60,375 nucleotides of DNA from Ammonifex sp. Its GTDB lineage: Bacteria; Bacillota; Desulfotomaculia; Desulfotomaculales; DYER01. This document shows, in pieces, positions 17,082 to 42,425 of the stretch. Both the position numbers and the translations under genes were made by a program. Position 1 is the stretch's first letter. Every line of letters begins with the position of its first letter. Under the pieces are notes generated by a model that was not told the DNA's origin, made no database searches, and saw only the letters and a program-made list of their open reading frames with translations. The stretch is taken from positions 1 to 60,375 of the forward strand of contig DYER01000029.1 of assembly GCA_020725605.1 (NCBI GenBank), read 5' to 3'.

Positions 17082-17096
17082 GCAATTTTCGTGCCA
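17082..17096 (-). promoter_or_regulatory. sigma-54 (-24/-12) promoter
   Basis: The minus strand reads TGGCACGAAAATTGC, an exact match to TGGCACG-N4-TTGC. It faces the esterase/lipase genes, about 390 nt upstream of ATG 16688. Confidence 0.7.
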
Positions 17097-22354: not shown

Positions 22355-22421
22355 ACCTCATACCTCCCCGCCTCGTGCTGAGACCGGCACCTTCTGCGGC
22401 CCGGCCCCGGGTCACCCTGGG

Positions 22422-24059: not shown

Positions 24060-24163
24060 TTTGAGCAACTCCTCCTTCCTTCAGAATCGATTTTGCCGGG
24101 CGCCGGGAATCGGCACAAAGGGGGGCGAAGGCGAAAACGAAGGGAGCGTCTCCCCTCTCGAAA

Positions 24164-25327: not shown

Positions 25328-25345
25328 AAACGCTCCTTCCCTCCC

Positions 25346-25765
25346 TCAGGTCATGGGCCGGAATTTAAACCCGTACCGTATCACTCCCTCCTCTTCGTAG
25401 ATGCGGCGGAAAACCGCTTCCACCCTCATGCCGATCCGGGGTCCCTCCTCCGGAGGGTCCACCATCTGGGCGATGATGCGCGGACCCTCGTCCAGTTCCA
25501 CCAGCACAACCGGGTAGCTTCCCTTGCAGGCCGCTTCGGCGGCGAATTCCGGGGGTGCGCCCGCGCCGGCGATTAACGTCCAGGAGTGCACGGTACCGCG
25601 CCCGCTTAAACGACATTCCTCAAAGTCCGCACCCACGCCGCAGTACCTGCACACCCCCTTGGGCGGGAAATTTACCCGTCCGCAGTTCCGGCATCTGAGC
25701 CCCACCAGCCGGTAGCGCTGGGGCACCGCGCGCTGGTACATCGGCACCGATATATGGGCGCCCAC
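25346..25765 (-). CDS. DUF35 Zn-ribbon/OB-fold protein (thiolase-associated scaffold)
   Basis: A CRNCGRVNFPPKGVCRYCG zinc ribbon is followed by an OB-fold segment. GTG start follows GAGGTGA. Confidence 0.85.
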   Translation of the reverse strand: MGAHISVPMYQRAVPQRYRLVGLRCRNCGRVNFPPKGVCRYCGVGADFEECRLSGRGTVHSWTLIAGAGAPPEFAAEAACKGSYPVVLVELDEGPRIIAQMVDPPEEGPRIGMRVEAVFRRIYEEEGVIRYGFKFRPMT

Positions 25766-25776
25766 GGGAGGTCACC

Positions 25777-26790: not shown

Positions 26791-26796
26791 GGATCT

Positions 26797-27972: not shown

Positions 27973-27990
27973 CGCCGCACCTTCCCTTCC

Positions 27991-29142: not shown

Positions 29143-29171
29143 GCCAATGTGCCCTCCCTCGGAAAATCTCG

Positions 29172-29948
29172 TCAGCGTCCTTTGAAATTGGGGCTGCGCT
29201 TTTCCAGAAACGCTCCGGTTCCCTCCAGCCGGTCCTCGGTGTAAAACGCCACCGTCTGGGCGAGCTTCTCAAACAGCAGCCCGGTGTTAATGTCGCTGTT
29301 GCTACCCACGTTGATGGCCATTTTGGCCAGGCCCACGGCCACGGGACCTTTGGCGATGATCCGGTTCGCCACGTCCCGCACCGCGTCCATGAGCTGCTCC
29401 GGAGGCACCACCCGGTTGACCAGGCCGATCCGTTCGGCCTCCGCCGCGTCGATAATGGCCCCGGTGAAGATGAGTTCCTTGGCCTTCCCCAAACCCACCA
29501 GCCGCTGCAGGCGCTGGGTACCTCCGGCGCCGGGAATGATGCCCAGGCCCACTTCGGGCTGTCCCAGGCGCGAGCGGTCCGTGGCAATTCTTATGTCGCA
29601 GGCCATGGCCAGCTCGCAGCCGCCGCCCAGCGCGAAACCGTCGATGGCCGCGATGACCGGTTTTTCCAGGCTTTCGATTTCGTTCAGCGTCTCCTGGGCC
29701 TCGCCCCTGAGGACCTCCAGGGCGTGACGTTCCCTCAGCACCCGGATGTCGGCTCCCGAGGCAAAGGCCTTTCCTCCCGCGCCGGTGATGACCACCACGC
29801 GGACTTCGTCGTCCTGCCGGCATTGACGGATGGCGGCGCGGATTTCCGACCAGGTGGCCGGGTCCAGGGCGTTCCGCACCTCCGGCCGGTTCAGGGTGAT
29901 AAAGGCAATGTTTCCGTCCTTCCGGAACAGGATGTTCCGGTATGCCAC
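29172..29948 (-). CDS. enoyl-CoA hydratase (crotonase family)
   Basis: Motifs ITLNRPEVRNAL, GAGGKAFASGADI and GGGCELAMACD. The GTG start lies 1 nt after the hbd stop. Confidence 0.9.
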   Translation of the reverse strand: MAYRNILFRKDGNIAFITLNRPEVRNALDPATWSEIRAAIRQCRQDDEVRVVVITGAGGKAFASGADIRVLRERHALEVLRGEAQETLNEIESLEKPVIAAIDGFALGGGCELAMACDIRIATDRSRLGQPEVGLGIIPGAGGTQRLQRLVGLGKAKELIFTGAIIDAAEAERIGLVNRVVPPEQLMDAVRDVANRIIAKGPVAVGLAKMAINVGSNSDINTGLLFEKLAQTVAFYTEDRLEGTGAFLEKRSPNFKGR

Positions 29949-29949
29949 T

Positions 29950-30822
29950 TCATCCCCTCCTCTCCCTTTCTCCGCCGTACTCGTAAAAGCCCCTGCCGGT
30001 TTTGCGCCCCCACTCGCCCCGCACGAACTTCTCCACGATGGTGGGGGAGGGTTTGTGGGCGGGATCGCCGGTCCTCTGGTAGCGCTCCATGGCCACGTGG
30101 TAACTGAGGTCGATGCCCGTGAGGTCCAGCAACCGGAAGGGCCCCATGGGATGGCCCAGGCCGTGAACCACGGCGGTGTCGATGTCCTCGTACGAGGCGA
30201 CTCCCGTCTCGTAGAGATAGAGGGCCTCGTTCCTGATGGCCGTGAGGATGCGGTTGACCAGAAAGCCTTCCACCTCCTTGCGCAGCAGGACCGGAATCTT
30301 GCCCATCCTCCTGGCCGCTTCCATGACCGCGTCCACCGTACTTTGCGCCGTATGGGGCCCTTTGACCACCTCCACGAGTTTCATTACCAGCGCCGGGTTG
30401 AAGAAGTGCATGTTGCACACTCTGGCGGGGCGCCGGGTGGCATCGGCCAGGCGCGAGCTCACTATGTAGGAGCTGTTGGTCGCGAGGACGGCGTCGGGCG
30501 GGCATAAAGAATCCAGTTCCGCGAAAACCTGCCTCTTGACGGCCAGTTTCTCGACCACCGCCTCGATGACCAGGTCCGCGTCGCCCGCCGCCTCGCCCAG
30601 ATCCCCGGTAAATCGAAGCGCGGCCCGCGCCCGGTCCGCCTGGCCCTGGGTGAGCTTTCCCTTTGCCACCCGCCCGGCAAGGTACCCGTCGACGAACTCC
30701 GACGCCTTACGCAGCGCCTCCTCGCTCACGTCGTGACACTTCACGCGGTAGCCGGCCATGGCCGCCACCAGCGCGATCTGCTGGCCCATCACACCGGCGC
30801 CAACCACGCAGACGTTTTCCAC
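29950..30822 (-). CDS. hbd: 3-hydroxyacyl-CoA (3-hydroxybutyryl-CoA) dehydrogenase
   Basis: The Rossmann motif VCVVGAGVMG, plus NSSYI and MHFFNPA. GTG start follows GGTGAGGTGGG. Confidence 0.9.
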   Translation of the reverse strand: MENVCVVGAGVMGQQIALVAAMAGYRVKCHDVSEEALRKASEFVDGYLAGRVAKGKLTQGQADRARAALRFTGDLGEAAGDADLVIEAVVEKLAVKRQVFAELDSLCPPDAVLATNSSYIVSSRLADATRRPARVCNMHFFNPALVMKLVEVVKGPHTAQSTVDAVMEAARRMGKIPVLLRKEVEGFLVNRILTAIRNEALYLYETGVASYEDIDTAVVHGLGHPMGPFRLLDLTGIDLSYHVAMERYQRTGDPAHKPSPTIVEKFVRGEWGRKTGRGFYEYGGERERRG

Positions 30823-30914: not shown

Positions 30915-30930
30915 TGCAATGGCCGTGCCC
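30915..30930 (-). promoter_or_regulatory. sigma-54 (-24/-12) promoter of the beta-oxidation cluster
   Basis: The minus strand reads GGGCACGGCCATTGCA, with correct GG-N10-GC spacing and 15/16 match to TGGCACG-N4-TTGCA. It lies about 93 nt upstream of the hbd GTG. Confidence 0.7.
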
Positions 30931-32101: not shown

Positions 32102-32770
32102 TCAACGGAAGGGGGCACAACCCCTTTCGGGGCCACAGCCAGACCTCAACCGCCGCAGGAAATCCTCAAAGAGTTCGGGCGCCCTTTCCACCAGCCCCGG
32201 TCGCACAACCGCCAGTCCCCTTGCCTCTTGCGGGTACGCCGGTTTCAGTTGTTGCCACCGTCGCTCCAGCAAATCTACTCGGGATGCAAGTACGTCCGCG
32301 CAGATCCTGACCAGGCTTTCGGCGCCGCTCTCGGTCGCGGCCGCCACGTCAACGACGTCTCGGACCTTAAGGGTTTCCGGACGGTAAAAAAGCTTTTTCG
32401 TGACTATTTCGGCCGCGGTTTCCACGCGAATTTCCCTGCCGCCGATTTTTTCCCAGGTGCAATTCGGGCTCGTCAGGTACGGAGCTATGATGAGGTCCAC
32501 GACCCCTTTCCCGAAAAAGAGCTTTAAGAACCACGAAGCTTCCTCGTAGTCGCGGACCACGGCGGCCACATCTCCGTTCAGGCGGGGCGTCACCAGAAGT
32601 AAGAGCTGGGCGTCGGTCAGGAAGATGTCGACGTCGTTACTGACGCGGTGGTTCAGGCGGAAGGCCAGGGCGGTACCGCCCCCGAAGGACCACTCCTCGG
32701 GGGCAATCCCCGCCCCGTCCAGGATACCCGCGGCCGTATCCAGAAGATCCTTCCAGTCGTGAGGGGTCAC
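32102..32770 (-). CDS. AbiEii/DUF1814-family nucleotidyltransferase toxin (type IV TA)
   Basis: The motif FGGGTALAFRLNHRVSNDVDIF is the GGTAL...RxSxDxD NTase motif. GTG 32770 overlaps the upstream stop (GTGA). Confidence 0.75.
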   Translation of the reverse strand: MTPHDWKDLLDTAAGILDGAGIAPEEWSFGGGTALAFRLNHRVSNDVDIFLTDAQLLLLVTPRLNGDVAAVVRDYEEASWFLKLFFGKGVVDLIIAPYLTSPNCTWEKIGGREIRVETAAEIVTKKLFYRPETLKVRDVVDVAAATESGAESLVRICADVLASRVDLLERRWQQLKPAYPQEARGLAVVRPGLVERAPELFEDFLRRLRSGCGPERGCAPFR

Positions 32771-33072
32771 GGGCCGAGCATCTCCTCCAGCTCCCGGTTG
32801 GGATAGAGCTCCTTCACGTGGAGCCTGTAGTAAGCCAGAAGTTCTTCCGGTGCAATCCCGTGTGCGTCCAGGAATCCGGCCACCAGCCGGAGGGGTGTGT
32901 CGGTGAAGAAGTTGACCACGTGGACGCGGCGGTCCTCCGGCAGCCGCATGCTCCTGATGAGCTCTGCCAACTCTTCTTCGCGCACATAATTCAGGGTCTG
33001 GGCATTCACGATGAGTTCCACCGGGGAAAACAGTACCGCATCCCGGCGGTCCGTGCCCCGCACACCCGACAC
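32767..33072 (-). CDS. putative cognate antitoxin of the AbiEii-like toxin
   Basis: A 101-aa ORF has a 4-nt overlap with the toxin start. I recognise no family motif; the call rests on position and coupling. Confidence 0.5.
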   Translation of the reverse strand: MSGVRGTDRRDAVLFSPVELIVNAQTLNYVREEELAELIRSMRLPEDRRVHVVNFFTDTPLRLVAGFLDAHGIAPEELLAYYRLHVKELYPNRELEEMLGP

Positions 33073-33172
33073 CCCCGTTTTTGGAAGGAGTACCTGGGAC
33101 CATTATAGCCGCCCGCCGGCAAAAATACCACTCCCTGGCGCTGCCGGTCGGGCGCGGCGCAGGCGGACGCCG

Positions 33173-33545: not shown

Positions 33546-35417
33546 CTAAATGCCCAGGGCCACACGCTTCTTGTCGATGTGGGCCGCGATGCCCTCGGCC
33601 ACGGCCACCGGGTCGTCGCCCACGGCCAGCTTGCCGCCGGTGAGTTGCTCCACGTCCTCGGTGAGGAGCTTTACCACCTCGGGCGAGCCGGTGACCGGCG
33701 GGGTGGGCGAGACGTGGGTGTAGAGGCCGAAGGCCACGGCGCCGAAGGCGTCCACCACCGCTTTTTGCTCCAGGTACTCGGGCGCGGTGACGGCCGCCGG
33801 CAACTGCGAGGGGTCGATGCCCAGGGCCCCGGCCACGGCCGTGGCCAGTAGTATCAGCCGGCCGGTGTCGGCGCAGGTGCCGAAGGAGAGCACGGGCGGC
33901 ACGCCCAGCTGCCGGCACACGGCCCTCAGGCCCGGTCCGGCTGCTTGCGCCGCCTCGCGGGTGGTGAGTCCGGCCACCTGGCAGGCCGCGTTGCCGCACC
34001 CCGCGGAGAGCACCAGCAGGTCGCGGCGGATGAGTTCGCGGGCCACGCCCACGTTGAGGGCGTCCTGGGGGCCGTTGCCCAGGCTGGTGCAGCTCACCAG
34101 CACCACAACGCCCTTAATGGTTCCCTTCTTGATGACCTCCAGCAGCGGGTCCAGGCTGCCGCCCAGGGCCTGCAGCACGGCCTCGGTGGAGAAGCCGGTG
34201 AGGACCCGGATGGAGCGCAGGCCCCTCACGGCCTCCCGGCCCTTGCGCCGGCGGAAGTTGTCCACGGCCATCTCGATGAGCCGCCGGGCCTGCTCCTCGA
34301 CCTTCTCCGGCTCGTAGTCCAGATGATCCGCGGTGCCCGGCAGGTTGACGAGGGGCGAGACGGGCACCAGGGTCACGCCGTACTTCTCCGCGTACAGGCC
34401 CAGGCTGGGCAGGGAGCAGTTCATGTCCATGGCCAGCAGGTCCACGGCGCCCGTGGCCAGGGCGTACTCCTGGGTGATCCAGTTGCCGGTCAGCCCCCGG
34501 AAGACGTCGTCGGCGGCGAAGCGCTGCATCAGCTCCTGGCCGGTCTCGATGGATCCGATGATGCGCACTCCCCTCGCGCCGGCGGCGCGGGCCAGTTCCT
34601 GAATTTCGGGCCGGCGGGCCACCTCAATCAGGGCCGCGCCCACGAAGGGCTTGTGGCCGTGGGGCAGGACGTTGACGTAATCCGGGTCCAGGATGCCCAG
34701 GTCCACCTCGGCCTCGTGGGGCTGCGGGGTGCCGAAGAGGATGTCCTGGACGATCTCCAGGGGCACCAGGGCGCCGTAAACCGTGGCCAGTCCCAGGCGC
34801 AGGCCCGCCTTGGCCAGGGTGACGTAGTGGCCGTCGATGCTGGTCATGGTGCGGGTGGTGGTCTCCAGCAGCTCGTGGAGGGGACCGCCGGGAAGGATGC
34901 CCAGTTCCCGCCACACCTTCTTGCGGCTCTCGGGCGCGAACTTTTCCACGAAGGTTCCGGGCCGGTCCGTACCCTCGTGCAGGGCGGCCAGCACGGCGTC
35001 GGCCACGGCCGCCGCGCGCTCGGACGCGCTTCCCGCCGGCACGCCCAGCTGATCGGCAAACAAGTGCAGTTTGGCCTCGTCCCTGATCCCGTAGGGCGTT
35101 TTGCCGGCCGCGGTCGCTTTAAGGGTGCGGGCCGCCTCCTTGCAGTGGTAGGTGTAGGCCGCGGCCCCGAACTTGGCCCGGTGCACCATGTTGCGCATGA
35201 CCATGGCCGCGCCGTCGATGCCGCAGGCGCCCCTCTCCACCTTACCCGGCACCACGCGGCAGGGGCCGTTGCTGCACAACTGGCAGCTTAAGCCCCGCAT
35301 GCAGAACTGCTTACAGCGCACCTTCTCCTGATCGGCGAAACGGTCCGCCACGTTGGTGAGTCCCGCGGCCCTGATGCGCTCGTACATGGCGTTGACGGTC
35401 TCGTGGTGACTGATCAC
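33546..35417 (-). CDS. cooS: anaerobic carbon-monoxide dehydrogenase catalytic subunit family (CooS-type)
   Basis: The N-terminal Cys pattern is CKQFCMRGLSCQLCSNGPCR...GACG. Other motifs are HGHKP, MDMNC, SAGCGNAA and SFGTCAD. GTG start follows GGGGAGG. Confidence 0.85.
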   Translation of the reverse strand: MISHHETVNAMYERIRAAGLTNVADRFADQEKVRCKQFCMRGLSCQLCSNGPCRVVPGKVERGACGIDGAAMVMRNMVHRAKFGAAAYTYHCKEAARTLKATAAGKTPYGIRDEAKLHLFADQLGVPAGSASERAAAVADAVLAALHEGTDRPGTFVEKFAPESRKKVWRELGILPGGPLHELLETTTRTMTSIDGHYVTLAKAGLRLGLATVYGALVPLEIVQDILFGTPQPHEAEVDLGILDPDYVNVLPHGHKPFVGAALIEVARRPEIQELARAAGARGVRIIGSIETGQELMQRFAADDVFRGLTGNWITQEYALATGAVDLLAMDMNCSLPSLGLYAEKYGVTLVPVSPLVNLPGTADHLDYEPEKVEEQARRLIEMAVDNFRRRKGREAVRGLRSIRVLTGFSTEAVLQALGGSLDPLLEVIKKGTIKGVVVLVSCTSLGNGPQDALNVGVARELIRRDLLVLSAGCGNAACQVAGLTTREAAQAAGPGLRAVCRQLGVPPVLSFGTCADTGRLILLATAVAGALGIDPSQLPAAVTAPEYLEQKAVVDAFGAVAFGLYTHVSPTPPVTGSPEVVKLLTEDVEQLTGGKLAVGDDPVAVAEGIAAHIDKKRVALGI

Positions 35418-35423
35418 GCTTTT

Positions 35424-36257
35424 CTACCTCCCCGCGAGTTTTTGCAATTCTGAAAAGTCTTCCGCCCGGCGCTCCTTGATGTCCCCGCGGATGCCGACGA
35501 GCACGGTCTCCAGGGGAATCTGCCTGCCGGCCGCGGCCAGAGCCTCCCTGGCCAGGTGCACCAGGCCGTAGCAGCACGGCACCTCCATGTAGGCCACCAG
35601 GACGCTCCGCGGCCGGGCCTCCAGGAAGATGCGGCGCAGCTTCTCCCGGTAGGCCGCCACGTCGTCGAACTTGGGGCAACCCACCACCACGGCCCGGCCC
35701 CGGAGGAAATCGCGGTGGAAGCCGGCGCAGGCCACGGGCACGCAGTCGGCCGCCACCAGCAGGTCCGCGTCCTTGAAGTAGGGCGCCGCGGGCGAGACCA
35801 GGTGGAGCTGCACCGGCCACTGGCGGAGTTCCGACCGCACGTTCCCGCCTGCGGCCTCCCGGGACCCCGCCTCCTCCGGCACCTCTGCGGGGCCCCAGGC
35901 GAGTTCCTGGCAGGAGCAGGTGATGCCTCCGCCCGACTCAGGTCCCGCCGCGGCCGGGGCCTCCAGCCCGTGGGCCCTGAGGTGCTCCAGGTGGCGGGCC
36001 AGCAGTTCCGGCGATTGTCGGCGCAGGTGGGCGATGACCCCCTCGGCGTCGTACTCCTCGGCCTCGCGCTCCTCGATGGTCAGGGCCCCCTTGGGGCACT
36101 CGCCCAGGCAGGCGCCCAGGCCGTCGCAGTAGCTCTCCTTCACCAGGCGGGCCTTACCGTCCACCACGGCCAGGGCCCCCTCGGGGCAGGCCGGCAGGCA
36201 CAGCCCGCAGCCGTCGCACTTCTCCTCGTCAATGCGGATGATCTTCCTGCGCGTCAT
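35424..36257 (-). CDS. 4Fe-4S dicluster domain protein (CooS/Hcp-associated type)
   Basis: The N-terminus reads CDGCGLCLPACPEGAL...CDGLGACLGECPKGAL. A Cys-containing C-terminal domain follows. ATG follows AGGAGG. Confidence 0.8.
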   Translation of the reverse strand: MTRRKIIRIDEEKCDGCGLCLPACPEGALAVVDGKARLVKESYCDGLGACLGECPKGALTIEEREAEEYDAEGVIAHLRRQSPELLARHLEHLRAHGLEAPAAAGPESGGGITCSCQELAWGPAEVPEEAGSREAAGGNVRSELRQWPVQLHLVSPAAPYFKDADLLVAADCVPVACAGFHRDFLRGRAVVVGCPKFDDVAAYREKLRRIFLEARPRSVLVAYMEVPCCYGLVHLAREALAAAGRQIPLETVLVGIRGDIKERRAEDFSELQKLAGR

Positions 36258-36504
36258 CCGATGCCGCCTCCTTTCTCCGCACCAGCCTCTCGTACAGCTC
36301 GTCGCCCACGCACTCGCGCGCGTACTTGCACCACTGCACGCAGGACTGTACGTCGTTGTACACCGTGAAGCCGCACTTCTCGCAGTTGACCTTCACGTCC
36401 ACCGAGAACACTTCCACCTCGCTGCCGCACTCCGGGCACTTCTTGATCTTCAATTCCGGGGTGCGGATGAAAAGGGTACCCGGGCATCTGTCGAGCATGG
36501 CCAT
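36229..36504 (-). CDS. small zinc-ribbon protein
   Basis: ATG 36504 follows GGGGGG. CPECGSEVEV...CEKCG forms a CxxC...CxxC ribbon. The 3' end overlaps the next gene by 29 nt. Confidence 0.6.
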   Translation of the reverse strand: MAMLDRCPGTLFIRTPELKIKKCPECGSEVEVFSVDVKVNCEKCGFTVYNDVQSCVQWCKYARECVGDELYERLVRRKEAASDDAQEDHPH

Positions 36505-36578: not shown

Positions 36579-36593
36579 GCAAGGGGCGTGCCA
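36579..36593 (-). promoter_or_regulatory. sigma-54 (-24/-12) promoter of the Zn-ribbon/Fe-S/cooS operon
   Basis: The minus strand reads (C)TGGCACGCCCCTTGC(T), an exact match to TGGCACG-N4-TTGC. It lies 75 nt upstream of ATG 36504. Confidence 0.75.
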
Positions 36594-36699
36594 GGGAGGA
36601 GAGGCCGGGCGCGCGGGCTCCAGAACGCCCCTGCGCCGCGCGCTGTGGGCCGAAGCACGAAGCGTACCCGCCTCCCTGCGGAGCTGTGTATCACATTGA

Positions 36700-36788
36700 G
36701 TGAGACAGGCCTTTGAGACGTCGTGAAGGGCGTGGCGGCACGAAGAAGGCGCGGCGGAAGTGTCTCGGCGGCAGCCGGTAGTGAGACA
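36700..36788. promoter_or_regulatory. candidate enhancer (UAS) sites, GTGAGACA motif cluster
   Basis: The 11-mer AGTGAGACAGG is repeated exactly at 36699-36709 and 36780-36790. Partial copies are GAGACG at 36715 and TGTCTC at 36761. The cluster lies 105-200 bp upstream of the sigma-54 promoter. Confidence 0.5.
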
Positions 36789-36806
36789 GGATTCGAATTT
36801 TCTGCC

Positions 36807-37568
36807 CTACCACCAGTACAGGGGGTAACGCCGTCCGGGCACGCAGTTGTTGAAGATCAGGGCAATGAGGACCAGCAGGGCCGCGCCGGCGAAAACGGGC
36901 GTGAGCACGAAGGCGTAGCCCTGGCCCTGGGCCACGGCCACGAAGGCGGTGGCGCCGCCGGGCGGGTGCAGGGTGCGGGTGACCAGCATGACCAGGACGG
37001 CCAGGCCCACGCCCAGGGTGATGGTCCACCAGGTGGTCCCCAGGAGTTGGCCGATGGCTACGCCCGCCAGGGCCGAGACCACGTGTCCGCCGACCACGTT
37101 GCGCGGCTGGGCGAAGGGGCTGGCGGGCGCGCCGTAGAGCAGGGCCGCCGTGGCGCCGAAGGAGGCCACCAGGAGCGGCAGGCCGTAGTGGAAGCTCAGG
37201 AAGGAGACCACGCCCACGCCCAGGACGCTCCCGGCGGCCGCGCACCACACCTCGCCCGCGGCCGGACGGGGCGGGCAGCTGGCGCACGGACGTATGCGGT
37301 ACAGGATGCGCGACACCGGGCCGACGGCGCCGTTCTGGGGCGCGGTGCGGGACCCCCCGGTCGCGCCCGCGGGACCGCGCGGGCGTTCGTTGTGTGCGGC
37401 CCGGGCCGGCGCGGCGGTCCCGTGCCCCTCCTCCGGATGGCTCCGGTCGCCGGCGACGCGCACGGAGCCCCGGACCCGCCCTCCCCGGCCGGTATTCCCC
37501 CGGCCGACCGCGACCCCGGAGCCCGGGGTTTCCCGGGTCGCGGCCTTGACCGCGTTCCTTTCGGACAA
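36807..37568 (-). CDS. HPP-family membrane protein with an Arg/Gly-rich N-terminal extension
   Basis: The C-terminal 150 aa match the HPP family (FGATAALLYGAPASPFAQPRNVVGGH...TLHPPGGATA). TTG 37568 follows GAGGAGGGA. Confidence 0.75.
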   Translation of the reverse strand: MSERNAVKAATRETPGSGVAVGRGNTGRGGRVRGSVRVAGDRSHPEEGHGTAAPARAAHNERPRGPAGATGGSRTAPQNGAVGPVSRILYRIRPCASCPPRPAAGEVWCAAAGSVLGVGVVSFLSFHYGLPLLVASFGATAALLYGAPASPFAQPRNVVGGHVVSALAGVAIGQLLGTTWWTITLGVGLAVLVMLVTRTLHPPGGATAFVAVAQGQGYAFVLTPVFAGAALLVLIALIFNNCVPGRRYPLYWW

Positions 37569-37652
37569 GGTGCATCCCTCCTCGGCACGCCGCCCCGTCG
37601 AACGGCCGAGATTCCCTTTGCGGTGGTGCGGACCTTGCTGCGGACTCCCCTT

Positions 37653-37668
37653 TGCAAAGTGCGTGCCC
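37653..37668 (-). promoter_or_regulatory. sigma-54 (-24/-12) promoter of the HPP gene
   Basis: The minus strand reads GGGCACGCACTTTGCA, with correct spacing and 15/16 match to consensus. It lies 85 nt upstream of TTG 37568. Confidence 0.65.
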
Positions 37669-37705
37669 GACGTTGAAAACAGGAGGGCGGCCGCAGCGGG
37701 CCGTA

Positions 37706-37780
37706 TGTCTCACCGGAATCGAGACACTTTCCGGTACAGAGAAGACGTAGCGGCGAACTTCGGAAGCGCAAATGTCTCAC
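37706..37780. promoter_or_regulatory. candidate enhancer (UAS) sites, TGTCTCAC motif cluster
   Basis: TGTCTCAC occurs at 37706-37713 and 37773-37780, and an inverted GAGACA at 37721-37726. This is the reverse complement of the motif upstream of the cooS promoter. Confidence 0.5.
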
Positions 37781-37872
37781 CCCAACCGTACGGATGAAAC
37801 ACGAAGCGGCGTAAATAAAGGGCCCGCTCCTGGCCGCCCTGTCCCTGGTGGCCACGGTGGCCCTGCGCCGAA

Positions 37873-39603
37873 CTACTTCCGGCCCAGATAGCGGTAGAGG
37901 GTGGCCCGGCCCACGCCCAGGAGCCGGGCCGCCTTTACTTTGTTGCCGCCGGCCTCCCGCAGGGCCCGCTGCACGGCCTCGGGGGTGAGCTTCCTGCGGC
38001 CCGCGGACAACGAAGGGGCCGGTCGGGAGCCCTCGGTTACCTCCGGCGGCAGGTGCTCGGGCTCGACGGTGTCGCCCGCGCACTTCACCAGGGCGAACCG
38101 TATGGCGTTCTCGAGCTGGCGCACGTTGCCCGGCCAGTGGTACTCCATGAGGGCCGCCAGGGCCCGCTCCGAGAGCCGCACCCCGGGGCGCCGGGCCTCG
38201 GCGGCGTACCGCTCCAGGAAGTGGGCCGCGAGCAGGGGAATGTCGTTGCGCCGCTCCCGCAATGGGGGTAGCGTGATGGGCACCACGCACAGCCGGTAGT
38301 AAAGGTCCTCCCGGAACTCGCCCCGGGCCACCAGCTGCTTCAGGTCACGGTTGGTGGCGCTGACCACGCGCACGTCCACCTTTACGGTCCTTTCCGCGCC
38401 CACGGGCTCGAAGGTGCCCTCCTGGAGCACGCGCAGGAGCTTGACCTGCGTGGCGGGCGGCAGCTCCCCCACTTCGTCCAGGAAGATGGTGCCGCCGTCG
38501 GCCAGGGCGAAGCGGCCCTTCTTGTCCCGGATGGCCCCGGTGAAGGCGCCCTTGACGTGGCCGAAGAGCTCGCTTTCCAGGGTACCCTGGGGCAGGGCCC
38601 CGCAGTTGACGGCCACGAAGGGGCCGCGGGCGCGCCACCCCTCACGGTGGATGGCGAGGGCCACCAGTTCCTTGCCCGTGCCTGTCTCGCCCTGGATGAG
38701 CACCGGCACGTTGCTGTCGGCCACGCTGCGGATGAGGTCGAAGATGCGGAACATGCGGTGATCCCGTGTGATGATGCCGGCGAACTCCTGTTTCTCGCCC
38801 AGCCGGCGCTCGAGTTCCAGCTCGCGCGTCCGGTCGCGGTAGGAGGCCAGCACGCCGATGGCCCGACCGGCGTTGTCCCTCATGGGTACCACCGACATCT
38901 CCACCCGCCTGGTCTCCCCGCCCCTGGTGGCGATGTCCAGGGTGTAACTCACCTCGTGCTCAGGTACGCACATACCCTTTTCCGCGAAGGAGCACCTGTG
39001 CCCGCAGAAACCCCCGGGGAACACCTGGTAGCAGTCGCGGCCCAGCACCTCCTCGCGCCGGTAGCCCGTGATGCGCTCGGCCGCGCTGTTGAAGAAGAAT
39101 ATGCGGCGGGACAGATCGTGGGCCACGACGCCCTCGGTGAGGCTGTCGAGGACGCGCACGGCGTTGTCCTTCAGCGTCACCAGGGCCTGGAAGTAGCCGT
39201 AGGCGAAGAGGGAGTGGACGCGCCCATTGATTTCGTCCCGGCACTGCCTCAGGGCCCGGAGGAGTTCGGCCTCGTCCCGGTCCCCCGCCAGGGGATCGGG
39301 CAGGTTCCAGTAGACCACGCCGTGGATGCCCTGGAGCACCGGGTACTGCTCCCGCACCCGGGGGCTGAGCACCACCACCAGGTCGAAGGGCCGGGGGCCC
39401 AGTTCCTCCAGGGAGGGACCGGGGGCGGGGTCCACCTCCACGCCGGCCTCGGCCATGGCCCGCACCACCAACGGGTGGACCCGGCCCCTGCGGAGTCCGG
39501 CGGCCAGTACCTCAACACCGGGGGGCGCCAGGGCGCGGGCGAAGGCCCCGGCCATGGGGCCACGGCAGGCGTTGTTCTCGCCCACGAACAGGACCTGCTT
39601 CAC
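37873..39603 (-). CDS. sigma-54-dependent activator with an N-terminal degenerate LMW-PTP/ArsC-like domain and a PAS domain
   Basis: GTG 39603 overlaps the upstream stop (GTGA). The N-terminus VLFVGENNACRGPMAGA aligns to the LMW-PTP P-loop. It is followed by a PAS domain, then GETGTGKE, GAFTGA and a C-terminal HTH (AARLLGVGRATLYR). Confidence 0.85.
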   Translation of the reverse strand: MKQVLFVGENNACRGPMAGAFARALAPPGVEVLAAGLRRGRVHPLVVRAMAEAGVEVDPAPGPSLEELGPRPFDLVVVLSPRVREQYPVLQGIHGVVYWNLPDPLAGDRDEAELLRALRQCRDEINGRVHSLFAYGYFQALVTLKDNAVRVLDSLTEGVVAHDLSRRIFFFNSAAERITGYRREEVLGRDCYQVFPGGFCGHRCSFAEKGMCVPEHEVSYTLDIATRGGETRRVEMSVVPMRDNAGRAIGVLASYRDRTRELELERRLGEKQEFAGIITRDHRMFRIFDLIRSVADSNVPVLIQGETGTGKELVALAIHREGWRARGPFVAVNCGALPQGTLESELFGHVKGAFTGAIRDKKGRFALADGGTIFLDEVGELPPATQVKLLRVLQEGTFEPVGAERTVKVDVRVVSATNRDLKQLVARGEFREDLYYRLCVVPITLPPLRERRNDIPLLAAHFLERYAAEARRPGVRLSERALAALMEYHWPGNVRQLENAIRFALVKCAGDTVEPEHLPPEVTEGSRPAPSLSAGRRKLTPEAVQRALREAGGNKVKAARLLGVGRATLYRYLGRK

Positions 39604-42425
39604 GCCACGCCCTCCCCCACCACGCGCTCCAGGAACAGGGCCACGAGGCGCGGGTCCAGCGCGCTGCCGGCCAGGTCCCGGAGCCTGGCCGCGGCCTCCT
39701 CCGGGCCCAGGCCCTCTCCGGCGGGGGGCTCGGCGACGAGCGCCGCGTAGGTCTCGGCCACGGCCAGAACGCGGCATTCGGGCGGGATTTCCTCCCCCTT
39801 GAGCCCCAGGGGGTAGCCCAAGCCGTCCCACCGCTCGCGGTGCTTTAAGATCAGGTCCGCCACGGGCGCCAGCTCCGGCACGGCCAGAGCGATGCGGTAG
39901 CCGAGCTCCGGGTGGCGCTCCACCTCCCGCCTCTCCTCGGGGGTCAGGGCCCCCTCGGGCCGCGAGAGAACGCGCTCCCCCAGGCCCGCCTTGCCGATGT
40001 CGTGGTACCGCGCCAGGAGCAGGAGATCCGCGGTCTGCCTTTCGCCCAGGCCCGCGGCCCGGGCCAGGGCCGCGGCCAGCTTCCGCACCCGTCCGGCCCT
40101 GGCCGCGGCCGGGCGGTCCAGGTCGTCCAGCCTCCTGAAGATGGCCTGCACCACGGCCTCCCGGGCCCCGCGGTTGCCCAGGAGCTTATCCCGGTACATG
40201 TTGTGGTCCGCCTCCTTCAGCAGGTCGCGCAGGCGCGTGGCCGCGTCGCCCGTGGCGCAACCCACGGACACGCTCAGGGGAAGTTCCGGCCCGGAGGCGT
40301 TGTAGGCCGCCACGGCCTCGCGGATGCGCCGGCAGGCGTCCTCAACCACGGGCCGCGGGGCACGCGGCAGCAGGGCGGCGAACTCGTCGCCGCCGATGCG
40401 AGCCACCACGTCGCCGGAGCGGAAGCACTTCCTTGTCACGGTCGCGGTCGCGATCAACAGGCGGTCCCCGGCGTCGTGGCCCAGTACGTCGTTGACCAGC
40501 TTAAGCCCGTCCACGTCCCACATGACCACGCTCACCGGCGCGTAGCGGCCCCCCTCCAGGCGCCCCATCTCCTGGTCGAAATAGGCGCGGTTGTAGAGCC
40601 CGGTGAGGACGTCGTGGAAGGTGAGGAACTTCAGCTCCTCCTCCATGCGCCGGCGCTCGGTGATTTCCAGGGCCACCTCCACCGCGCCGACCACCCCGCC
40701 TCGCTCGTCCCGCACGGGATAGGCCCGGATGAACCAGAACCGGCCGTCGGGGGACCGGACCTCCCCCTCCCGGGGCTCGCCCGAACGCAGGGCGGCCTCC
40801 ACCGGACAGCCCTCGCAGGGCCGGTCGCGGCCGTACCACACCTCGTAGCAGCGGCGGCCCACCAGTTGCTCCGGGGACAGGCCCACCGAGGCGGCCGCAG
40901 CCCGGTTGGCCCACAGCACCCTCATCTCGGCGTCCTGGTAGACCACCAGCTCCAGCATGGCGTCCAGAATGAGGGCCTTCTCGCGCTCGGACCGGCGCAG
41001 GGCCTCCTCGGTGCGCTTCTGTTCGGTCACGTCCATGTAGTTGCCCAGGACGGCCCGCTCGCCGCGGCACCGGATGGAGGCCACGGTCTCCATCACCCAC
41101 CTTACCTCGCCTTGCTTGGTGACCACCCGGAACTCGTAGGGTGCGGAGCGCTCCCCCTTGAGCATCCGGATCACGTTTTCCCGCACCGCGTCCCGGTCCT
41201 CGGGCAGGACCAGTGCCAGGGAATCCGTGCCCAGAAGCTCCTCACGGCCGTAGCCCGTGTGCTGCTCGAACCGGGGGTTGACGAACCGGAACTTCCCCTC
41301 CTGCACGATGTAGATGCCGATGGGCGAGCTGGTGGCGACGGTCTTGAAAAGTTCCTCGCTCTCCCGCAGCCGCCGCTGGGTACGCTCCAGGGCGGCCAGC
41401 ATCTCGTTCACCGTTCCGGCCAGGACCGCCAGTTCCCCGCCCCCGGCTGGCGCCACGCGGACCCCCGCGTTGGCGGCCTGCCCAACGCGCCGCACCTCCT
41501 CGCCCAGGCGGGCCAGGGGCGAAAGCACCGTCCTCTCCAGGAGCAACCACGTCGCGGCACCGGTCACCAGGCCCACGGCCAGCAGCGACAGGCCGAAGTA
41601 GCGCAAAGCAACCCGGCCCTCCCGGTAGATCTCCCTTGGCACCTCGACCCCCAGCGCCAGGGCCGGGCGGCCGTAAATGTCGGATACCAGGGCGTAGCCG
41701 GCCACCCGCTCACCGTCGAGGGGCCGTACCAGGGGAACCCCGGGCGCCAGGGTGGCCACGGCCGCCCGCCAGTCCTCGGGCAGGTCCGGCACGTCGGGCC
41801 GCCGGAACTCCACGGAGAGCCGGGTGGTGGCGGCCAGGCGCGTGGTTTCGTCGCGGTCCAGGAAGCGACCGATAATCAGGGTTCCCCGCGCCGGCCCGCC
41901 GTACTCGCTGGTGAGGATGGGCCGCGCGGCCACGAGCATGGGGCCCGCCGGCAGCATGAGCACGCCCTTCGTCCCGCTCCGCCCGTCGGGGCCGTGGCGC
42001 AACAGGGGCGCATTTGGCACCAGGTGCTCTTTCAGGCCCGGCGGCAGGGGGGTCTCCACCCCTGCCTCCAGGTCGAAGGCCTTGCCGAACACAATGCGGC
42101 CCGTGGTGTCCACGAAGAGCATCAGGTTGAACCTCTGGTTCACGAAGGTCGTGTCCACCAGGTTGGCCCTGATGTACTCCTCGTTGCGGTCCACCACGAA
42201 CTCGTAGGTGTCGTCCCAGGCGGCCCAGTCCACGCAGCGGGTGTCCAGCGCGTCCAGGGTCTCGGACAGGGCCCCCAGGGCGCGCTCCACGTTGCGGCGC
42301 ACGCTCCGGTCCTCGAGCTCCGCGAAGCTGCGGCCCAGCACCTCCCAGGCCACAAGGTACAGGGCCGCCATCACACAGGCCAGCACCAGGCCCACCGTTA
42401 ACGGAATTTTCAGACGCAGGCTCAC
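39600..42425 (-). CDS. membrane sensor CHASE4-HAMP-PAS-PAS-GGDEF-HD-GYP
   Basis: An N-terminal TM helix is followed by the CHASE4 signature DWAAWDDTYEFV and two PAS domains. Then come RSGDVVARIGGDEF and the HD-GYP motifs (YHDIGK, HRERWDGLGYP). Confidence 0.9.
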   Translation of the reverse strand: MSLRLKIPLTVGLVLACVMAALYLVAWEVLGRSFAELEDRSVRRNVERALGALSETLDALDTRCVDWAAWDDTYEFVVDRNEEYIRANLVDTTFVNQRFNLMLFVDTTGRIVFGKAFDLEAGVETPLPPGLKEHLVPNAPLLRHGPDGRSGTKGVLMLPAGPMLVAARPILTSEYGGPARGTLIIGRFLDRDETTRLAATTRLSVEFRRPDVPDLPEDWRAAVATLAPGVPLVRPLDGERVAGYALVSDIYGRPALALGVEVPREIYREGRVALRYFGLSLLAVGLVTGAATWLLLERTVLSPLARLGEEVRRVGQAANAGVRVAPAGGGELAVLAGTVNEMLAALERTQRRLRESEELFKTVATSSPIGIYIVQEGKFRFVNPRFEQHTGYGREELLGTDSLALVLPEDRDAVRENVIRMLKGERSAPYEFRVVTKQGEVRWVMETVASIRCRGERAVLGNYMDVTEQKRTEEALRRSEREKALILDAMLELVVYQDAEMRVLWANRAAAASVGLSPEQLVGRRCYEVWYGRDRPCEGCPVEAALRSGEPREGEVRSPDGRFWFIRAYPVRDERGGVVGAVEVALEITERRRMEEELKFLTFHDVLTGLYNRAYFDQEMGRLEGGRYAPVSVVMWDVDGLKLVNDVLGHDAGDRLLIATATVTRKCFRSGDVVARIGGDEFAALLPRAPRPVVEDACRRIREAVAAYNASGPELPLSVSVGCATGDAATRLRDLLKEADHNMYRDKLLGNRGAREAVVQAIFRRLDDLDRPAAARAGRVRKLAAALARAAGLGERQTADLLLLARYHDIGKAGLGERVLSRPEGALTPEERREVERHPELGYRIALAVPELAPVADLILKHRERWDGLGYPLGLKGEEIPPECRVLAVAETYAALVAEPPAGEGLGPEEAAARLRDLAGSALDPRLVALFLERVVGEGVA

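What the first reader, a model, noticed from the sequence alone, without database searches (positions are those of the whole stretch)
36579..37780. Sigma-54 / enhancer-binding-protein control of a CooS operon and an HPP gene, with a shared GTGAGACA enhancer motif
There are two -24/-12 matches on the minus strand. TGGCACGCCCCTTGC (36579-36593) lies 75 nt upstream of the Zn-ribbon/Fe-S/cooS operon. GGGCACGCACTTTGCA (37653-37668) lies 85 nt upstream of the HPP gene. Each is preceded at enhancer-like distances by the same 8-mer in either orientation. GTGAGACA occurs at 36700-36707 and 36781-36788, both inside an exact 11-mer AGTGAGACAGG. TGTCTCAC occurs at 37706-37713 and 37773-37780. Partial copies lie at 36715, 36761 and 37721. 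For this base composition I estimate roughly one chance occurrence of the 8-mer in the whole window. Four copies confined to two promoter-upstream regions is therefore striking. A sigma-54 activator gene lies immediately upstream. The CO-responsive CODH regulators I know of are CooA (CRP family) and RcoM. A sigma-54/EBP-driven cooS co-regulated with an HPP (nitrite-transporter-family) membrane protein looks undescribed. It may point to a non-canonical role, such as a redox or nitrogen-oxide response, rather than CO growth.
Basis: partly seen in the sequence, partly recalled or inferred. Interest (0 to 1): 0.8.

Follow-up and report, generated by a model that had tools for sequence, protein, structure and literature searches.

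The report
Redox-sensor enhancer sites controlling a pseudo-CO-dehydrogenase operon
Two sigma-54 promoters, each with paired TGTCTC/GAGACA activator sites, probably let a neighbouring iron-sulfur redox-sensing activator switch on a membrane protein and a "CO dehydrogenase" look-alike that cannot oxidise CO, which places this enzyme of unknown role in a stress-defence regulon found in several phyla.

Summary
GTGAGACA occurs exactly four times in 60 kb, and all four copies lie in the two intergenic regions named. The copies are arms of inverted repeats, TGTCTC-N9-GAGACA and TGTCTC-N16/17-GAGACA. Each of the two -24/-12 promoters has one repeat of each spacing, 66 to 220 bp upstream. Promoters and repeats are conserved in sister strains and in a Moorellales MAG.

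Arrays of TGTCTC(A/G) lie beside homologues of the adjacent activator in Bacillota, Desulfobacterota, Zixibacteria and a Poribacteria-named lineage, with two copies in a Verrucomicrobia locus. They are absent from 1.57 Mb of control loci.

The activator has an ArsC-like domain, a PAS domain with the Cys-x8-Cys-x3-Cys triad, a sigma-54 AAA+ domain and HTH_8. That triad spacing matches the [4Fe-4S] redox sensor OrpR.

The "CooS" is a CooS-V (clade D) protein with the Cys295-to-Glu change. The characterised member of that class does not oxidise CO. Elsewhere the activator family sits next to rubrerythrin, superoxide reductase, Ni-SOD, AhpC, thioredoxin-like proteins, cytochrome bd and class III HCP.

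Most likely this is an oxidant or nitrogen-oxide stress regulon, not CO metabolism. Nothing here is experimentally tested. I found no description of the family in the papers searched.

The parts
39600..42425 (-). CHASE4-HAMP-PAS-GGDEF-HD-GYP signalling protein. Its stop codon overlaps the activator's start codon.
   Evidence: Pfam. The GTGA overlap at 39603-39600 is seen. The same arrangement occurs in L002 and L003.
37873..39603 (-). Sigma-54 enhancer-binding protein of 576 aa. Its domains are an ArsC-like domain with the catalytic Cys residues lost, a PAS domain with invariant C-x8-C-x3-C, an AAA+ domain with GAFTGA, and HTH_8.
   Evidence: Pfam. Alignment A1. ArsC homology. Start codon.
37773..37801 (-). 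Distal activator site of the HPP promoter, about -134 from the predicted start. The arm GTGAGACA at 37780-37773 is exact. The partner arm TGTTTC is degenerate. The spacing is N17.
   Evidence: The sister strain L003 has a perfect TGTCTCAC-N12-GTGAGACA at the same place.
37706..37726 (-). Proximal activator site of the HPP promoter, TGTCTC-N9-GAGACA. The half-sites lie at about -82 and -66.
   Evidence: It is conserved base for base in L003.
37653..37668 (-). Sigma-54 promoter of the HPP gene, GGGCACgcactTTGCA. The predicted start is near 37643.
   Evidence: It is conserved as GGGCACggatcTTGC in L003.
36807..37568 (-). HPP-family membrane protein, with a TTG start. The Pfam domain covers residues 100-249. 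The N-terminal ~75 residues are poorly conserved.
   Evidence: TM_HPP at 171.6 bits. tblastn to L003 aligns only from residue 77. The start context is conserved.
36761..36788 (-). Distal activator site of the CooS-V operon, TGTCTC-N16-GAGACA. The half-sites lie at about -218 and -196.
   Evidence: The sister strain L091 has it at -222 and -198.
36687..36720 (-). Proximal activator site of the CooS-V operon, TGTCTCAC-N5-GTGATACA, with half-sites at -138 and -122. An extra CGTCTCA half-site lies at 36720-36714.
   Evidence: The same TGTCTC..GATACA pair is present in L091, and CGTCTCAC-N5-GTGATACA is present in L001.
36579..36593 (-). Sigma-54 promoter of the Zn-ribbon/Fe-S/CooS-V operon, TGGCACgccccTTGC. 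The predicted start is near 36568.
   Evidence: Exact consensus match. Conserved in L091, L093, L094, L095 and L001.
36229..36504 (-). Small Cys-rich Zn-ribbon-like protein of 89-91 aa. The likely start is the second ATG, at 36498.
   Evidence: Translation. Only weak Zn-ribbon Pfam hits. Homologues precede the Fe-S gene in L001, L084, L085 and L091.
35424..36257 (-). Fe-S protein of 277 aa, with a 2x[4Fe-4S] ferredoxin domain and an AF_0155-type C-terminal domain. It is the presumed electron-transfer partner.
   Evidence: Pfam. The precomputed PF27217 hit is on homologues. It is adjacent to CooS-V in about 15 of 80 loci.
33546..35417 (-). CooS-V-type (clade D) member of the CODH/HCP superfamily, 623 aa. 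Glu291 replaces the C-cluster Cys (Cys295 of CODH-II).
   Evidence: TIGR01702 at 763 bits. Best PDB match is 7B7Q (CooS-V_Ch) at 748 bits, against 410 bits for the next. The motif is GSIETGQE where canonical enzymes have GMCCTGNE. Glu is invariant in 24 relatives.

Best explanation
The region holds two sigma-54-dependent promoters. One drives an HPP-family membrane protein. The other drives a Zn-ribbon / Fe-S / CooS-V operon. Each promoter is served by a pair of TGTCTC...GAGACA inverted repeats. These repeats are the upstream activating sites of the enhancer-binding protein encoded immediately upstream.

That protein has an OrpR-like PAS domain whose Cys-x8-Cys-x3-Cys triad most likely holds a redox-sensitive [4Fe-4S] cluster. 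Ahead of the PAS domain sits an ArsC-like domain that has lost its catalytic cysteines in this lineage.

Inferred mechanism: dimers bind the two repeats at each promoter. A change in the cluster caused by oxidants (O2, peroxide or NO) releases the AAA+ domain. The AAA+ domain oligomerises, contacts sigma-54 polymerase by DNA looping and opens the promoter.

The products are a stress-defence module, not a CO pathway. CooS-V is a hybrid-cluster-type reductase fed by its own Fe-S partner. HPP is a putative nitrite-family transporter.

What is shown here: the sequence features, their conservation, and the co-occurrence of the motif with the activator family. What is inferred: binding, the cofactor, the signal, and whether the signal activates or inactivates.
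For: 1. Motif statistics. All four exact 8-mers and all four dyads in the window fall in 0.7% of its length. Each promoter has one N9 and one N16/17 dyad.

2. Footprinting against the sister strain. The coding flanks are about 91% identical, but the HPP intergenic region is only 73% identical. The conserved islands there are the dyads, the -24/-12 element and the start region. The half-site positions match: -82/-66 for HPP, and -138/-122 and -218/-196 for the CooS-V operon.

3. The CooS-V cassette carries its promoter and dyads with it to a different upstream neighbour, nrfHA, in the sister strain.

4. Family-wide association. Clusters of at least three TGTCTC(A/G) within 250 bp occur in 12 of 21 loci encoding the activator family, always beside the activator gene. 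None occurs in 145 control loci totalling 1.57 Mb. In 73 GTCTC sites, the flanking base is T in 66 and A or G in 68.

5. The activator is a complete EBP, with Walker A, GAFTGA and HTH_8. A second EBP and a further -24/-12 match in the window are consistent with wider sigma-54 use in this genome.

6. The PAS triad C192/C201/C205 is invariant in 21 homologues. Its spacing equals that of OrpR C52/C61/C65, which binds a redox-sensitive [4Fe-4S] cluster (PMC8359166). Members that lack the ArsC-like domain have the triad at residues 54-59, 63-68 and 67-72.

7. Genes downstream of the motif in other phyla are rubrerythrin, desulfoferrodoxin, Ni-SOD, AhpC, thioredoxin/DsbD proteins, ferritin, cytochrome bd and flavodoxin. 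In Bacillota MAGs the downstream genes are class III HCP with the same small-protein and Fe-S partners.

8. CooS-V identity and the Cys-to-Glu change. CooS-V_Ch shows no CO oxidation and slow NH2OH reduction (PMC9311411).
Against: There are no experimental data for this protein, these promoters or this organism.

The arm spacing of the repeats is not fixed: N8/N9 and N16/N17 here, and direct repeats and other spacings elsewhere. The binding geometry is therefore unclear.

Some family loci show no cluster at the threshold used: L086, L004, L008, L014 and L015. The HCP-linked delta-proteobacterial homologue L010 has no TGTCTC motif and no obvious -24/-12 element.

OrpR was compared only through published residue numbers, not through an alignment. 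OrpR is active when reduced, so the sign of the response cannot be transferred.

The ArsC-like domain has lost its redox cysteines in this clade, so part of the family's sensing logic may differ here.

rpoN is not in the window.

CooS-V_Ch showed no NO reductase activity, and its physiological substrate is unknown.
Confidence: 0.66

Rival explanations
1. The cis elements are the same, but the signal is specifically nitrogen-oxide stress (nitrite, NO or hydroxylamine) rather than general oxidant stress. On this reading, in this lineage the activator controls a nitrite-handling island. HPP moves nitrite. CooS-V with its Fe-S partner removes hydroxylamine or NO that leaks from Nrf-type nitrite ammonification.
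For: In the sister strain the locus reads EBP-HPP-HdrCB-like-ccsBA-nrfH-nrfA-ZnR-FeS-CooS-V. This follows from the 625-bp, 100%-identical overlap of L003 and L091. HPP proteins transport nitrite in cyanobacteria and chloroplasts (Maeda 2014, as cited in PMC7438415). HPP lies 1-2.5 kb downstream of CooS-V in five distant, archaeal-type loci, together with a multihaem cytochrome c. CooS-V_Ch turns over NH2OH slowly. Fe-S sensors commonly react with NO (my knowledge).
Against: Most of the activator family sits next to classical O2/ROS defence genes, not N-oxide genes. The nrfH upstream region shows no -24/-12 element or dyad. The window strain lacks nrfHA entirely. CooS-V_Ch showed no detectable NO reduction. 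HPP function in anaerobes is untested.
Confidence: 0.2
2. The TGTCTCAC repeats bind a different regulator, for example a repressor of a stress regulon. On this reading the neighbouring EBP uses other, unrecognised sites, or regulates other genes.
For: Binding has not been tested. The variable arm spacing is unusual for one dimeric HTH protein. L010 and L086 show the EBP family without the motif.
Against: The motif follows the EBP gene across phyla, whatever the downstream genes are. It is absent from 145 control loci, including 77 CooS-V loci without the EBP. It always lies 66-300 bp upstream of a -24/-12 element in the correct orientation. The HTH_8 region is nearly invariant across the family.
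Confidence: 0.07
3. The enzyme is a working Ni,Fe-CO dehydrogenase, and the locus is a new sigma-54 route for CO-responsive expression.
For: The protein scores 763 bits on the CooS equivalog model TIGR01702, whose cut-off is 478. Five of the six C-cluster ligand positions are kept.
Against: Cys295 is replaced by Glu, invariantly in this clade. The one characterised member has an Fe-S-O hybrid cluster and no CO/CO2 activity. The protein scores 748 bits to CooS-V against at most 410 bits to any true CODH. No cooC, cooF-hydrogenase or ACS genes lie in the operon. In related loci the same promoter type and partner proteins serve class III HCP instead.
Confidence: 0.04
4. The repeats are chance matches or a dispersed repeat element without regulatory function.
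For: One of 100 shuffles reaches four 8-mers, and 6 of 300 reach four dyads.
Against: All copies fall in 0.7% of the window. They are conserved in position across strains while the surrounding DNA diverges. They recur next to homologous activators in several phyla.
Confidence: 0.02

Closest known systems
OrpR (DVU2106) of Desulfovibrio vulgaris Hildenborough (PMC8359166)
   Same: It is a sigma-54 EBP with PAS, AAA+ and HTH domains. Its PAS domain has three conserved Cys residues with the same C-x8-C-x3-C spacing, which bind a redox-sensitive [4Fe-4S] cluster. Its targets lie next to the regulator gene and have dedicated palindromic sites.
   Different: OrpR has no ArsC-like N-terminal domain. 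Its operator is GGGCGYRTTTTGCGCCC, which has no meaningful match in the window. Its regulon is the orp (cell-division-related) operons. OrpR is active when reduced and switched off by oxidation. The sign of the response here is unknown.
PexR of Myxococcus xanthus (PMC12754779)
   Same: It is an EBP that binds dyad repeats and activates sigma-54 promoters of oxidant-defence genes (ahpC, katB). [quoted passage not shown]
   Different: Its sensor is a Zn/Fe-binding GAF domain. It is found in aerobic Myxococcota and also acts as a repressor of a sigma-A promoter. Its operator and targets are unrelated.
NorR of E. coli and relatives (my knowledge; not tested here)
   Same: It is an EBP that uses an iron centre to sense a reactive small molecule (NO). 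It activates detoxification genes from multiple upstream sites. In some bacteria it is predicted to control hcp.
   Different: It has a GAF domain with mononuclear non-haem iron. Its sites are GT-N7-AC. It is proteobacterial. The NorR NCBIfam model scores 332.6 bits here, against a cut-off of 476.
CooS-V of Carboxydothermus hydrogenoformans (PDB 7B7Q; PMC9311411)
   Same: It is the best structural relative (748 bits). It has the same Cys295-to-Glu substitution and the same N-terminal Cys pattern.
   Different: The C. hydrogenoformans gene has no informative neighbours (PMC1287953), and no regulation was discussed. Here the gene is the last in an operon with Zn-ribbon and Fe-S partners, behind a sigma-54 promoter.
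CooA- or RcoM-controlled coo operons
   Same: A dedicated regulator sits next to a cooS-family gene.
   Different: Those regulators are haem-based CO sensors acting at sigma-70 promoters. They control true Ni,Fe-CODH with CooC, CooF and hydrogenase. None of these features is present here.

Membership tests
Sigma-54 (-24/-12) promoter | GG and GC doublets exactly 10 nt apart, within TGGCAC-N5-TTGCW | tested here: met
   36593-36579 is an exact match. 37668-37654 has one mismatch, at the first T.
Sigma-54 (-24/-12) promoter | Correct orientation and distance upstream of a gene, and conservation in orthologous loci | tested here: met
   The elements lie 75 and 85 nt upstream of the starts. They are conserved in L003, L091, L093-L095 and L001.
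Sigma-54 (-24/-12) promoter | rpoN present and transcription dependent on it | not testable with these tools
   rpoN is not in the window. The only indirect support is two EBP genes and a further -24/-12 match in the window.
Bacterial enhancer-binding protein | AAA+ sigma-54 interaction domain with Walker A/B and a GAFTGA loop, plus a C-terminal HTH_8 | tested here: met
   PF00158 at 233 bits and HTH_8 at 35.5 bits. GETGTGKE, GAFTGA and DEVGE are invariant in A1.
Bacterial enhancer-binding protein | Binds upstream activating sequences 80-200 bp upstream of its promoters | tested here: inconclusive
   Dyads lie at -66 to -220 and co-occur with the family. No binding assay was possible.
OrpR-type Fe-S PAS redox sensors | Three conserved PAS cysteines with spacing C-x8-C-x3-C | tested here: met
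   C192/C201/C205 are invariant. OrpR has C52/C61/C65. The comparison rests on numbering, not on an alignment.
OrpR-type Fe-S PAS redox sensors | Binds a [4Fe-4S] cluster | not testable with these tools
   The Cys loop is modelled at low confidence (pLDDT 55-61), as expected without the cofactor.
OrpR-type Fe-S PAS redox sensors | OrpR operator GGGCGYRTTTTGCGCCC and the orp regulon | tested here: not met
   The only match is a single 3-mismatch hit inside a coding region, which is below chance expectation. The targets are different.
Thioredoxin/glutaredoxin-coupled ArsC (LMW-PTP fold) | ArsC fold | tested here: met
   phmmer gives E 1e-11 to 2L17. Foldseek gives a target-normalised TM-score of 0.85 to 1JL3.
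Thioredoxin/glutaredoxin-coupled ArsC (LMW-PTP fold) | Nucleophilic Cys of CX5R and the resolving cysteines | tested here: not met
   The window protein has GENNACRG and LSPRVREQYP. Distant homologues keep CTGNSCRS and TLC..A.E.CP.
Ni,Fe-CO dehydrogenase (CooS, catalytically competent) | All C-cluster ligands present (His261, Cys295, Cys333, Cys446, Cys476, Cys526 of CODH-II) | tested here: not met
   Glu291 stands in place of Cys295: GSIETGQE against GMCCTGNE. The other five positions are kept.
Ni,Fe-CO dehydrogenase (CooS, catalytically competent) | Ni-insertion and partner genes (cooC, cooF, hydrogenase or ACS) nearby | tested here: not met
   The operon holds only the Zn-ribbon, Fe-S and CooS-V genes. 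Flanking genes are HPP, an AbiEii-like gene and beta-oxidation genes. The rest of the genome was not seen.
CooS-V / clade D CODH-like proteins | Cys295-to-Glu change, and closest similarity to CooS-V_Ch | tested here: met
   748 bits to 7B7Q, against 410 bits to the next hit. Glu is invariant in 24 relatives. The PDB identity is confirmed.
HPP family (PF04982) | TM_HPP domain | tested here: met
   171.6 bits, against a cut-off of 27.2.
HPP family (PF04982) | Nitrite transport | not testable with these tools
   This is known only for cyanobacterial and chloroplast members.

The most novel reading that the evidence does not exclude
ArsC-like/Cys3-PAS sigma-54 activators form a previously unrecognised regulator family that spans several phyla. 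They recognise TGTCTC(A/G) arrays and switch on oxidant and nitrogen-oxide defence genes in anaerobes. The targets include rubrerythrin, SOR, Ni-SOD, AhpC, Trx/DsbD proteins, cytochrome bd, HCP and, in this lineage, CooS-V and HPP. If so, this would be the first physiological and regulatory context for clade D 'CO dehydrogenases'. It would place them, with a dedicated Zn-ribbon/Fe-S partner pair, as interchangeable with hybrid cluster proteins in stress defence.
Probability: 0.5. Interest if true: 0.78.

Novelty: new variant of a known kind. Interest (0 to 1): 0.66.

Why it matters
Clade D "CODHs" are widespread, are still annotated as CO dehydrogenases, and have no known role. The most recent genomic-context survey found "no clear pattern" around them (bioRxiv 10.1101/2025.09.14.676152).

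This locus places one of them behind a promoter that belongs to a recognisable regulon. The regulon's other members, in other phyla, are textbook oxidant-defence enzymes. In sister lineages the same promoter type and partner proteins serve a class III hybrid cluster protein instead.

That turns an open question, what CooS-V is for, into concrete experiments: which oxidant induces it, and which substrate the CooS-V/Fe-S/Zn-ribbon set reduces.

Separately, the activator family would be a second Fe-S-PAS sigma-54 sensor type after OrpR. It may also be a common alternative to PerR and OxyR in anaerobes. Its operator is simple enough to allow regulon prediction directly from genomes.

Tried and rejected
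1. The genome-contig scan with the sensor-domain alignment was dominated by plain ArsC genes, because one search pattern was the ArsC P-loop. Only L004-L015 were useful. The other 68 loci served as controls.

2. Rfam searches of the window region and of L084, L085, L001 and L091 found nothing.

3. The OrpR operator is absent from the window.

4. The hairpin after the activator's stop codon (37812-37880) is not better than shuffles (z = -0.85). The terminator scan found nothing there. I make no terminator claim.

5. L010 has an EBP homologue next to HCP, a ZnR-HD fusion and the Fe-S partner. It looked like strong support, but it has no TGTCTC motif and no clear -24/-12 element. I count it only as co-localisation of the partner proteins with HCP.

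6. L086 has an EBP homologue next to an amino-acid ABC transporter. It shows no motif.

7. The representative-library search was swamped by multi-PAS proteins. It gives only a rough lower bound: about 40-45 full-length ArsC+PAS clusters at 50% identity among the best 150.

8. My first Pfam and NCBIfam calls on the Zn-ribbon ORF used an out-of-frame range. I repeated the Pfam search with the correct range.

9. Arsenic sensing through the ArsC-like domain was considered and set aside. The catalytic cysteines are missing here. Ars-type genes (ArsR-like, ArsP permease) flank the family in only one of the loci examined (L011).
Full report
**1. What is in the sequence**

All genes of interest lie on the minus strand, in this order:
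- a CHASE4-PAS-GGDEF-HD-GYP protein (39600-42425);
- a sigma-54 enhancer-binding protein (EBP, 37873-39603), whose GTG start overlaps the preceding stop codon;
- an HPP-family membrane protein (36807-37568);
- a small Zn-ribbon-like protein (36229-36504);
- a 277-aa Fe-S protein (35424-36257);
- a 623-aa CooS-family protein (33546-35417).

Shuffles give a mean of 0.91, and 1 of 100 reaches four. The two -24/-12 matches are also as stated. TGGCACgccccTTGC is one of only two exact consensus matches in the window. The 11-mer and the partial copies are real.

**2. What the motif really is**

Read in the direction of transcription, the 8-mers are arms of inverted repeats. A search for TGTCTC-N4..20-GAGACA with at most one mismatch finds four instances in the window, all here. 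There is one N9 and one N16/17 repeat upstream of each promoter. Dinucleotide-preserving shuffles give 1.0 such dyad per 60 kb, and 6 of 300 reach four. The observed four lie in 417 bp.

Relative to the start predicted from the -12 element, the half-sites lie at -82/-66 and about -134 for HPP. For the CooS operon they lie at -138/-122, -150 and -218/-196. These are ordinary enhancer distances.

**3. Conservation**

- *Sister strain (proteins 96% identical).* L003 has EBP followed by HPP. Its intergenic region carries perfect TGTCTCAC-N12-GTGAGACA and TGTCTCG-N6-GTGAGACA repeats and GGGCACggatcTTGC. The coding flanks are about 91% identical at the DNA level. The intergenic region is 73% identical, and the conserved islands are the repeats, the promoter and the start region.
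- *Locus structure in the sister strain.* The Zn-ribbon/Fe-S/CooS cassette lies downstream of nrfH-nrfA and keeps its own repeats and TGGCACgcctcTTGC. L003 and L091 overlap by 625 bp at 100% identity. The sister locus is therefore EBP-HPP-HdrCB-like-ccsBA-nrfHA-ZnR-FeS-CooS. The window lacks those roughly 5.9 kb and has no nrfHA anywhere.
- *Moorellales MAG (EBP 76% identical).* The order is EBP-ZnR-FeS-CooS, with CGTCTCAC-N5-GTGATACA, further GAGAC(A/G) half-sites and TGGCACaccaaTTGC.
- *L095 (EBP 91% identical).* This is a third arrangement, without HPP.

**4. The motif belongs to the activator family**

Homologues with the same architecture are numerous. The best 120 clusters are all at least 51% identical.

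In Bacillota MAGs L084 and L085, the EBP is divergent from an operon of class III HCP, an 80-aa protein and the same type of Fe-S protein. That operon is preceded by TGGCACGG(A/T)TTTTGCA and an array of TGTCTC, TATCA and GAGACA elements.

In Verrucomicrobia, a Poribacteria-named lineage, Desulfobacterota and Zixibacteria, the same half-site clusters right next to the EBP gene.

- Seeding only on GTCTC in 16 such regions gives 73 sites. The 5' neighbour is T in 66 of them, and the 3' neighbour is A or G in 68. The consensus is therefore TGTCTC(A/G).
- As a control, I counted clusters of at least three TGTCTC(A/G) within 250 bp. They occur in 12 of 21 EBP-family loci, always beside the EBP gene. 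None occurs in 145 control loci totalling 1.57 Mb. The controls include 77 CooS-V loci that lack the EBP.

This is strong comparative evidence that the repeats are the EBP's binding sites. It is not a binding assay.

**5. The activator**

Pfam finds LMWPc, PAS, Sigma54_activat, the AAA lid and HTH_8. GAFTGA and the Walker motifs are invariant.

The N-terminal domain is an ArsC homologue by sequence (E 1e-11 to 2L17). It is also one by predicted fold (target-normalised TM-score 0.85 to B. subtilis ArsC; model pLDDT 84). In this clade the nucleophilic and resolving cysteines are replaced, whereas distant homologues keep CTGNSCRS...TLC..A.E.CP.

The PAS domain has an invariant C-x8-C-x3-C triad and an invariant His. 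OrpR of D. vulgaris is a sigma-54 EBP whose PAS cysteines C52, C61 and C65 hold a redox-sensitive [4Fe-4S] cluster (PMC8359166). The spacing is identical. Family members that lack the ArsC-like domain have the triad at residues 54-59/63-68/67-72. I could not align OrpR itself. OrpR's operator is absent from the window.

**6. The "CooS"**

The protein passes the CooS equivalog model, with 763 bits. Its best solved relative is 7B7Q, at 748 bits against 410 bits for any other structure. Where canonical enzymes have GMCCTGNE, it has GSIETGQE.

7B7Q, 7B7T, 7B95, 7B97 and 7B9A are CooS-V of C. hydrogenoformans. That protein carries an Fe-S-O hybrid cluster. [quoted passage not shown] The Cys-to-Glu exchange is the main difference from true CODHs (PMC9311411; PMC10502027).

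The Glu is invariant in 24 relatives that are at least 60% identical. The enzyme is therefore a clade D, CooS-V-type protein. CO-sensing regulators are not expected for it.

**7. What the regulon suggests**

Downstream of the motif in other lineages lie the following genes:
- a conserved small Cys protein, then thioredoxin-like proteins, rubrerythrin, ferritin and DsbD (L087);
- rubrerythrin, Ni-SOD and its peptidase (L089);
- an ECF sigma factor, desulfoferrodoxin and rubrerythrin (the P0030 locus; no DNA was available, so the motif was not checked there);
- AhpC (L005);
- rubrerythrin and cytochrome bd (L009);
- rubrerythrin, desulfoferrodoxin and flavodoxin (L012);
- an HdrD-like protein (L006).

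This is an O2/ROS defence set. HCP and CooS-V fit it, since HCPs reduce hydroxylamine, peroxide and NO.

In the window's own lineage the neighbours point to nitrogen oxides. HPP belongs to a family with nitrite-transport activity, and nrfHA is inserted in the sister strain. In five distant archaeal-type loci, CooS-V is followed by a multihaem cytochrome c, a CBS protein, HPP and a ferredoxin. That is independent evidence that HPP and CooS-V work together.

An Fe-S sensor would react to both kinds of stress. I therefore rank "oxidant or redox stress in general" first and "specifically N-oxide stress" second.

**8. How general is sigma-54 control of CooS-V?**

It is not general. Of 80 CooS-V loci from metagenomes, only the three closest (95-96% identical) have the promoter and motif. 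About 15 have the Fe-S partner adjacent. This fits the published finding that clade D has no consistent neighbourhood. What is general is the activator family and its operator. CooS-V and HPP are lineage-specific recruits.

**9. Literature**

- The CooS-V paper does not discuss regulation.
- The C. hydrogenoformans genome paper lists sigma-54 activators, but none lies next to cooS-V.
- The D. vulgaris sigma-54 regulome paper mentions neither this motif nor such targets.
- A 2025 paper calls PexR, a GAF-type sensor, the first EBP that senses H2O2, and cites only OrpR and AdhR as redox EBPs of anaerobes.
- Searches combining sigma-54 with LMWPc or arsenate reductase, or with hybrid cluster protein, found nothing relevant.

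Within the library searched, the family is undescribed. Subscription-only papers were not searched.

**10. Verdict**

The finding is a new variant of a known kind: a sigma-54/EBP system with a new sensor architecture, a new operator and a new regulon. It gives the first regulatory context for a CooS-V enzyme. All mechanistic steps beyond sequence and conservation are inference.

Noticed in passing
window 30916-30930 (-), with genes 20426-30822 (-): GGGCACGGCCATTGC lies about 95 nt upstream of a 3-hydroxyacyl-CoA dehydrogenase gene. That gene heads a beta-oxidation-like cluster of acyl-CoA dehydrogenases, a thiolase and an AMP-ligase. The cluster ends beside a second, PrpR_N-type sigma-54 activator (20426-22354). 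This is probably a second sigma-54 regulon in the window.
   Followed up: partly
window 17082-17096 (-): This is the only other exact TGGCAC-N5-TTGC match in the window (TGGCACGAAAATTGC). It lies about 394 nt upstream of an esterase-like ORF (15378-16688). No TGTCTC motif is nearby. It is unexplained.
   Followed up: no
window 39600-39603: The activator's GTG start overlaps the TGA stop of the CHASE4-PAS-GGDEF-HD-GYP gene (GTGA). The redox activator is therefore probably co-transcribed and translationally coupled with a c-di-GMP signalling protein. The same arrangement is seen in L002 and L003.
   Followed up: partly
window 36670-36804, compared with L003 7985-9473 plus L091 626-5081: There is a 5.9-kb indel between otherwise collinear strains. 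The sister strain carries HdrC/B-like genes, ccsBA and nrfHA between HPP and the CooS-V cassette. The window strain has 134 bp there, and that stretch holds both activator sites.
   Followed up: yes
window 32102-33103 (-); L091 8731-9286: An AbiEii-like toxin ORF lies directly downstream of CooS-V. The sister strain has a ParE/PhdYeFM pair at the same position. This looks like a variable toxin-antitoxin slot.
   Followed up: no
L084 6376-6690 and L085 6360-6815 (minus strand): A leader of about 310-450 nt lies between the sigma-54 promoter and the class III hcp start. It has conserved blocks (alignment A6). L085 carries a GGGAAGTGAGAAGT tandem-repeat insertion within it. There is no Rfam match. 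It is a candidate structured leader.
   Followed up: partly
L087 7964-8194, L089 8193-8402, L009 9654-9950, L006 5950-6120: A conserved small protein of 56-98 aa is the first gene after the activator in the ROS-type loci of four phyla. It has the motif L.LAD.GD....GCGV.YG..RD.AYK.R..AE.E and no Pfam family.
   Followed up: partly
P0125 (802 aa); L010 12725-13450: An HD phosphohydrolase domain is fused to a CooS-V homologue in P0125. In L010 it is fused to the Zn-ribbon partner next to an HCP. The HD domain thus recurs in this module.
   Followed up: no
L135, L148, L159, L160, L162 (GC 41-42%): L148, L159, L160 and L162 have 659-aa CooS-V proteins; L135's is 636 aa. L148 and L162 show the full order: CooS-V, a multihaem cytochrome c, CBS, HPP and a ferredoxin, with an AsnC-type regulator and a divergent Fe-S partner upstream. 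The L162 cytochrome carries an archaeal PGF-CTERM motif. L159 has CBS-HPP-ferredoxin without the cytochrome. L135 and L160 show only an HPP match downstream of CooS-V. The HPP/CooS-V pairing is independent of the sigma-54 system.
   Followed up: partly
window 36807-37568: The first ~75-100 codons of the HPP ORF are Gly/Arg/Pro-rich. They differ in length and sequence from the sister strain, although the TTG start context is conserved. The true start, or the function of this extension, is uncertain.
   Followed up: partly
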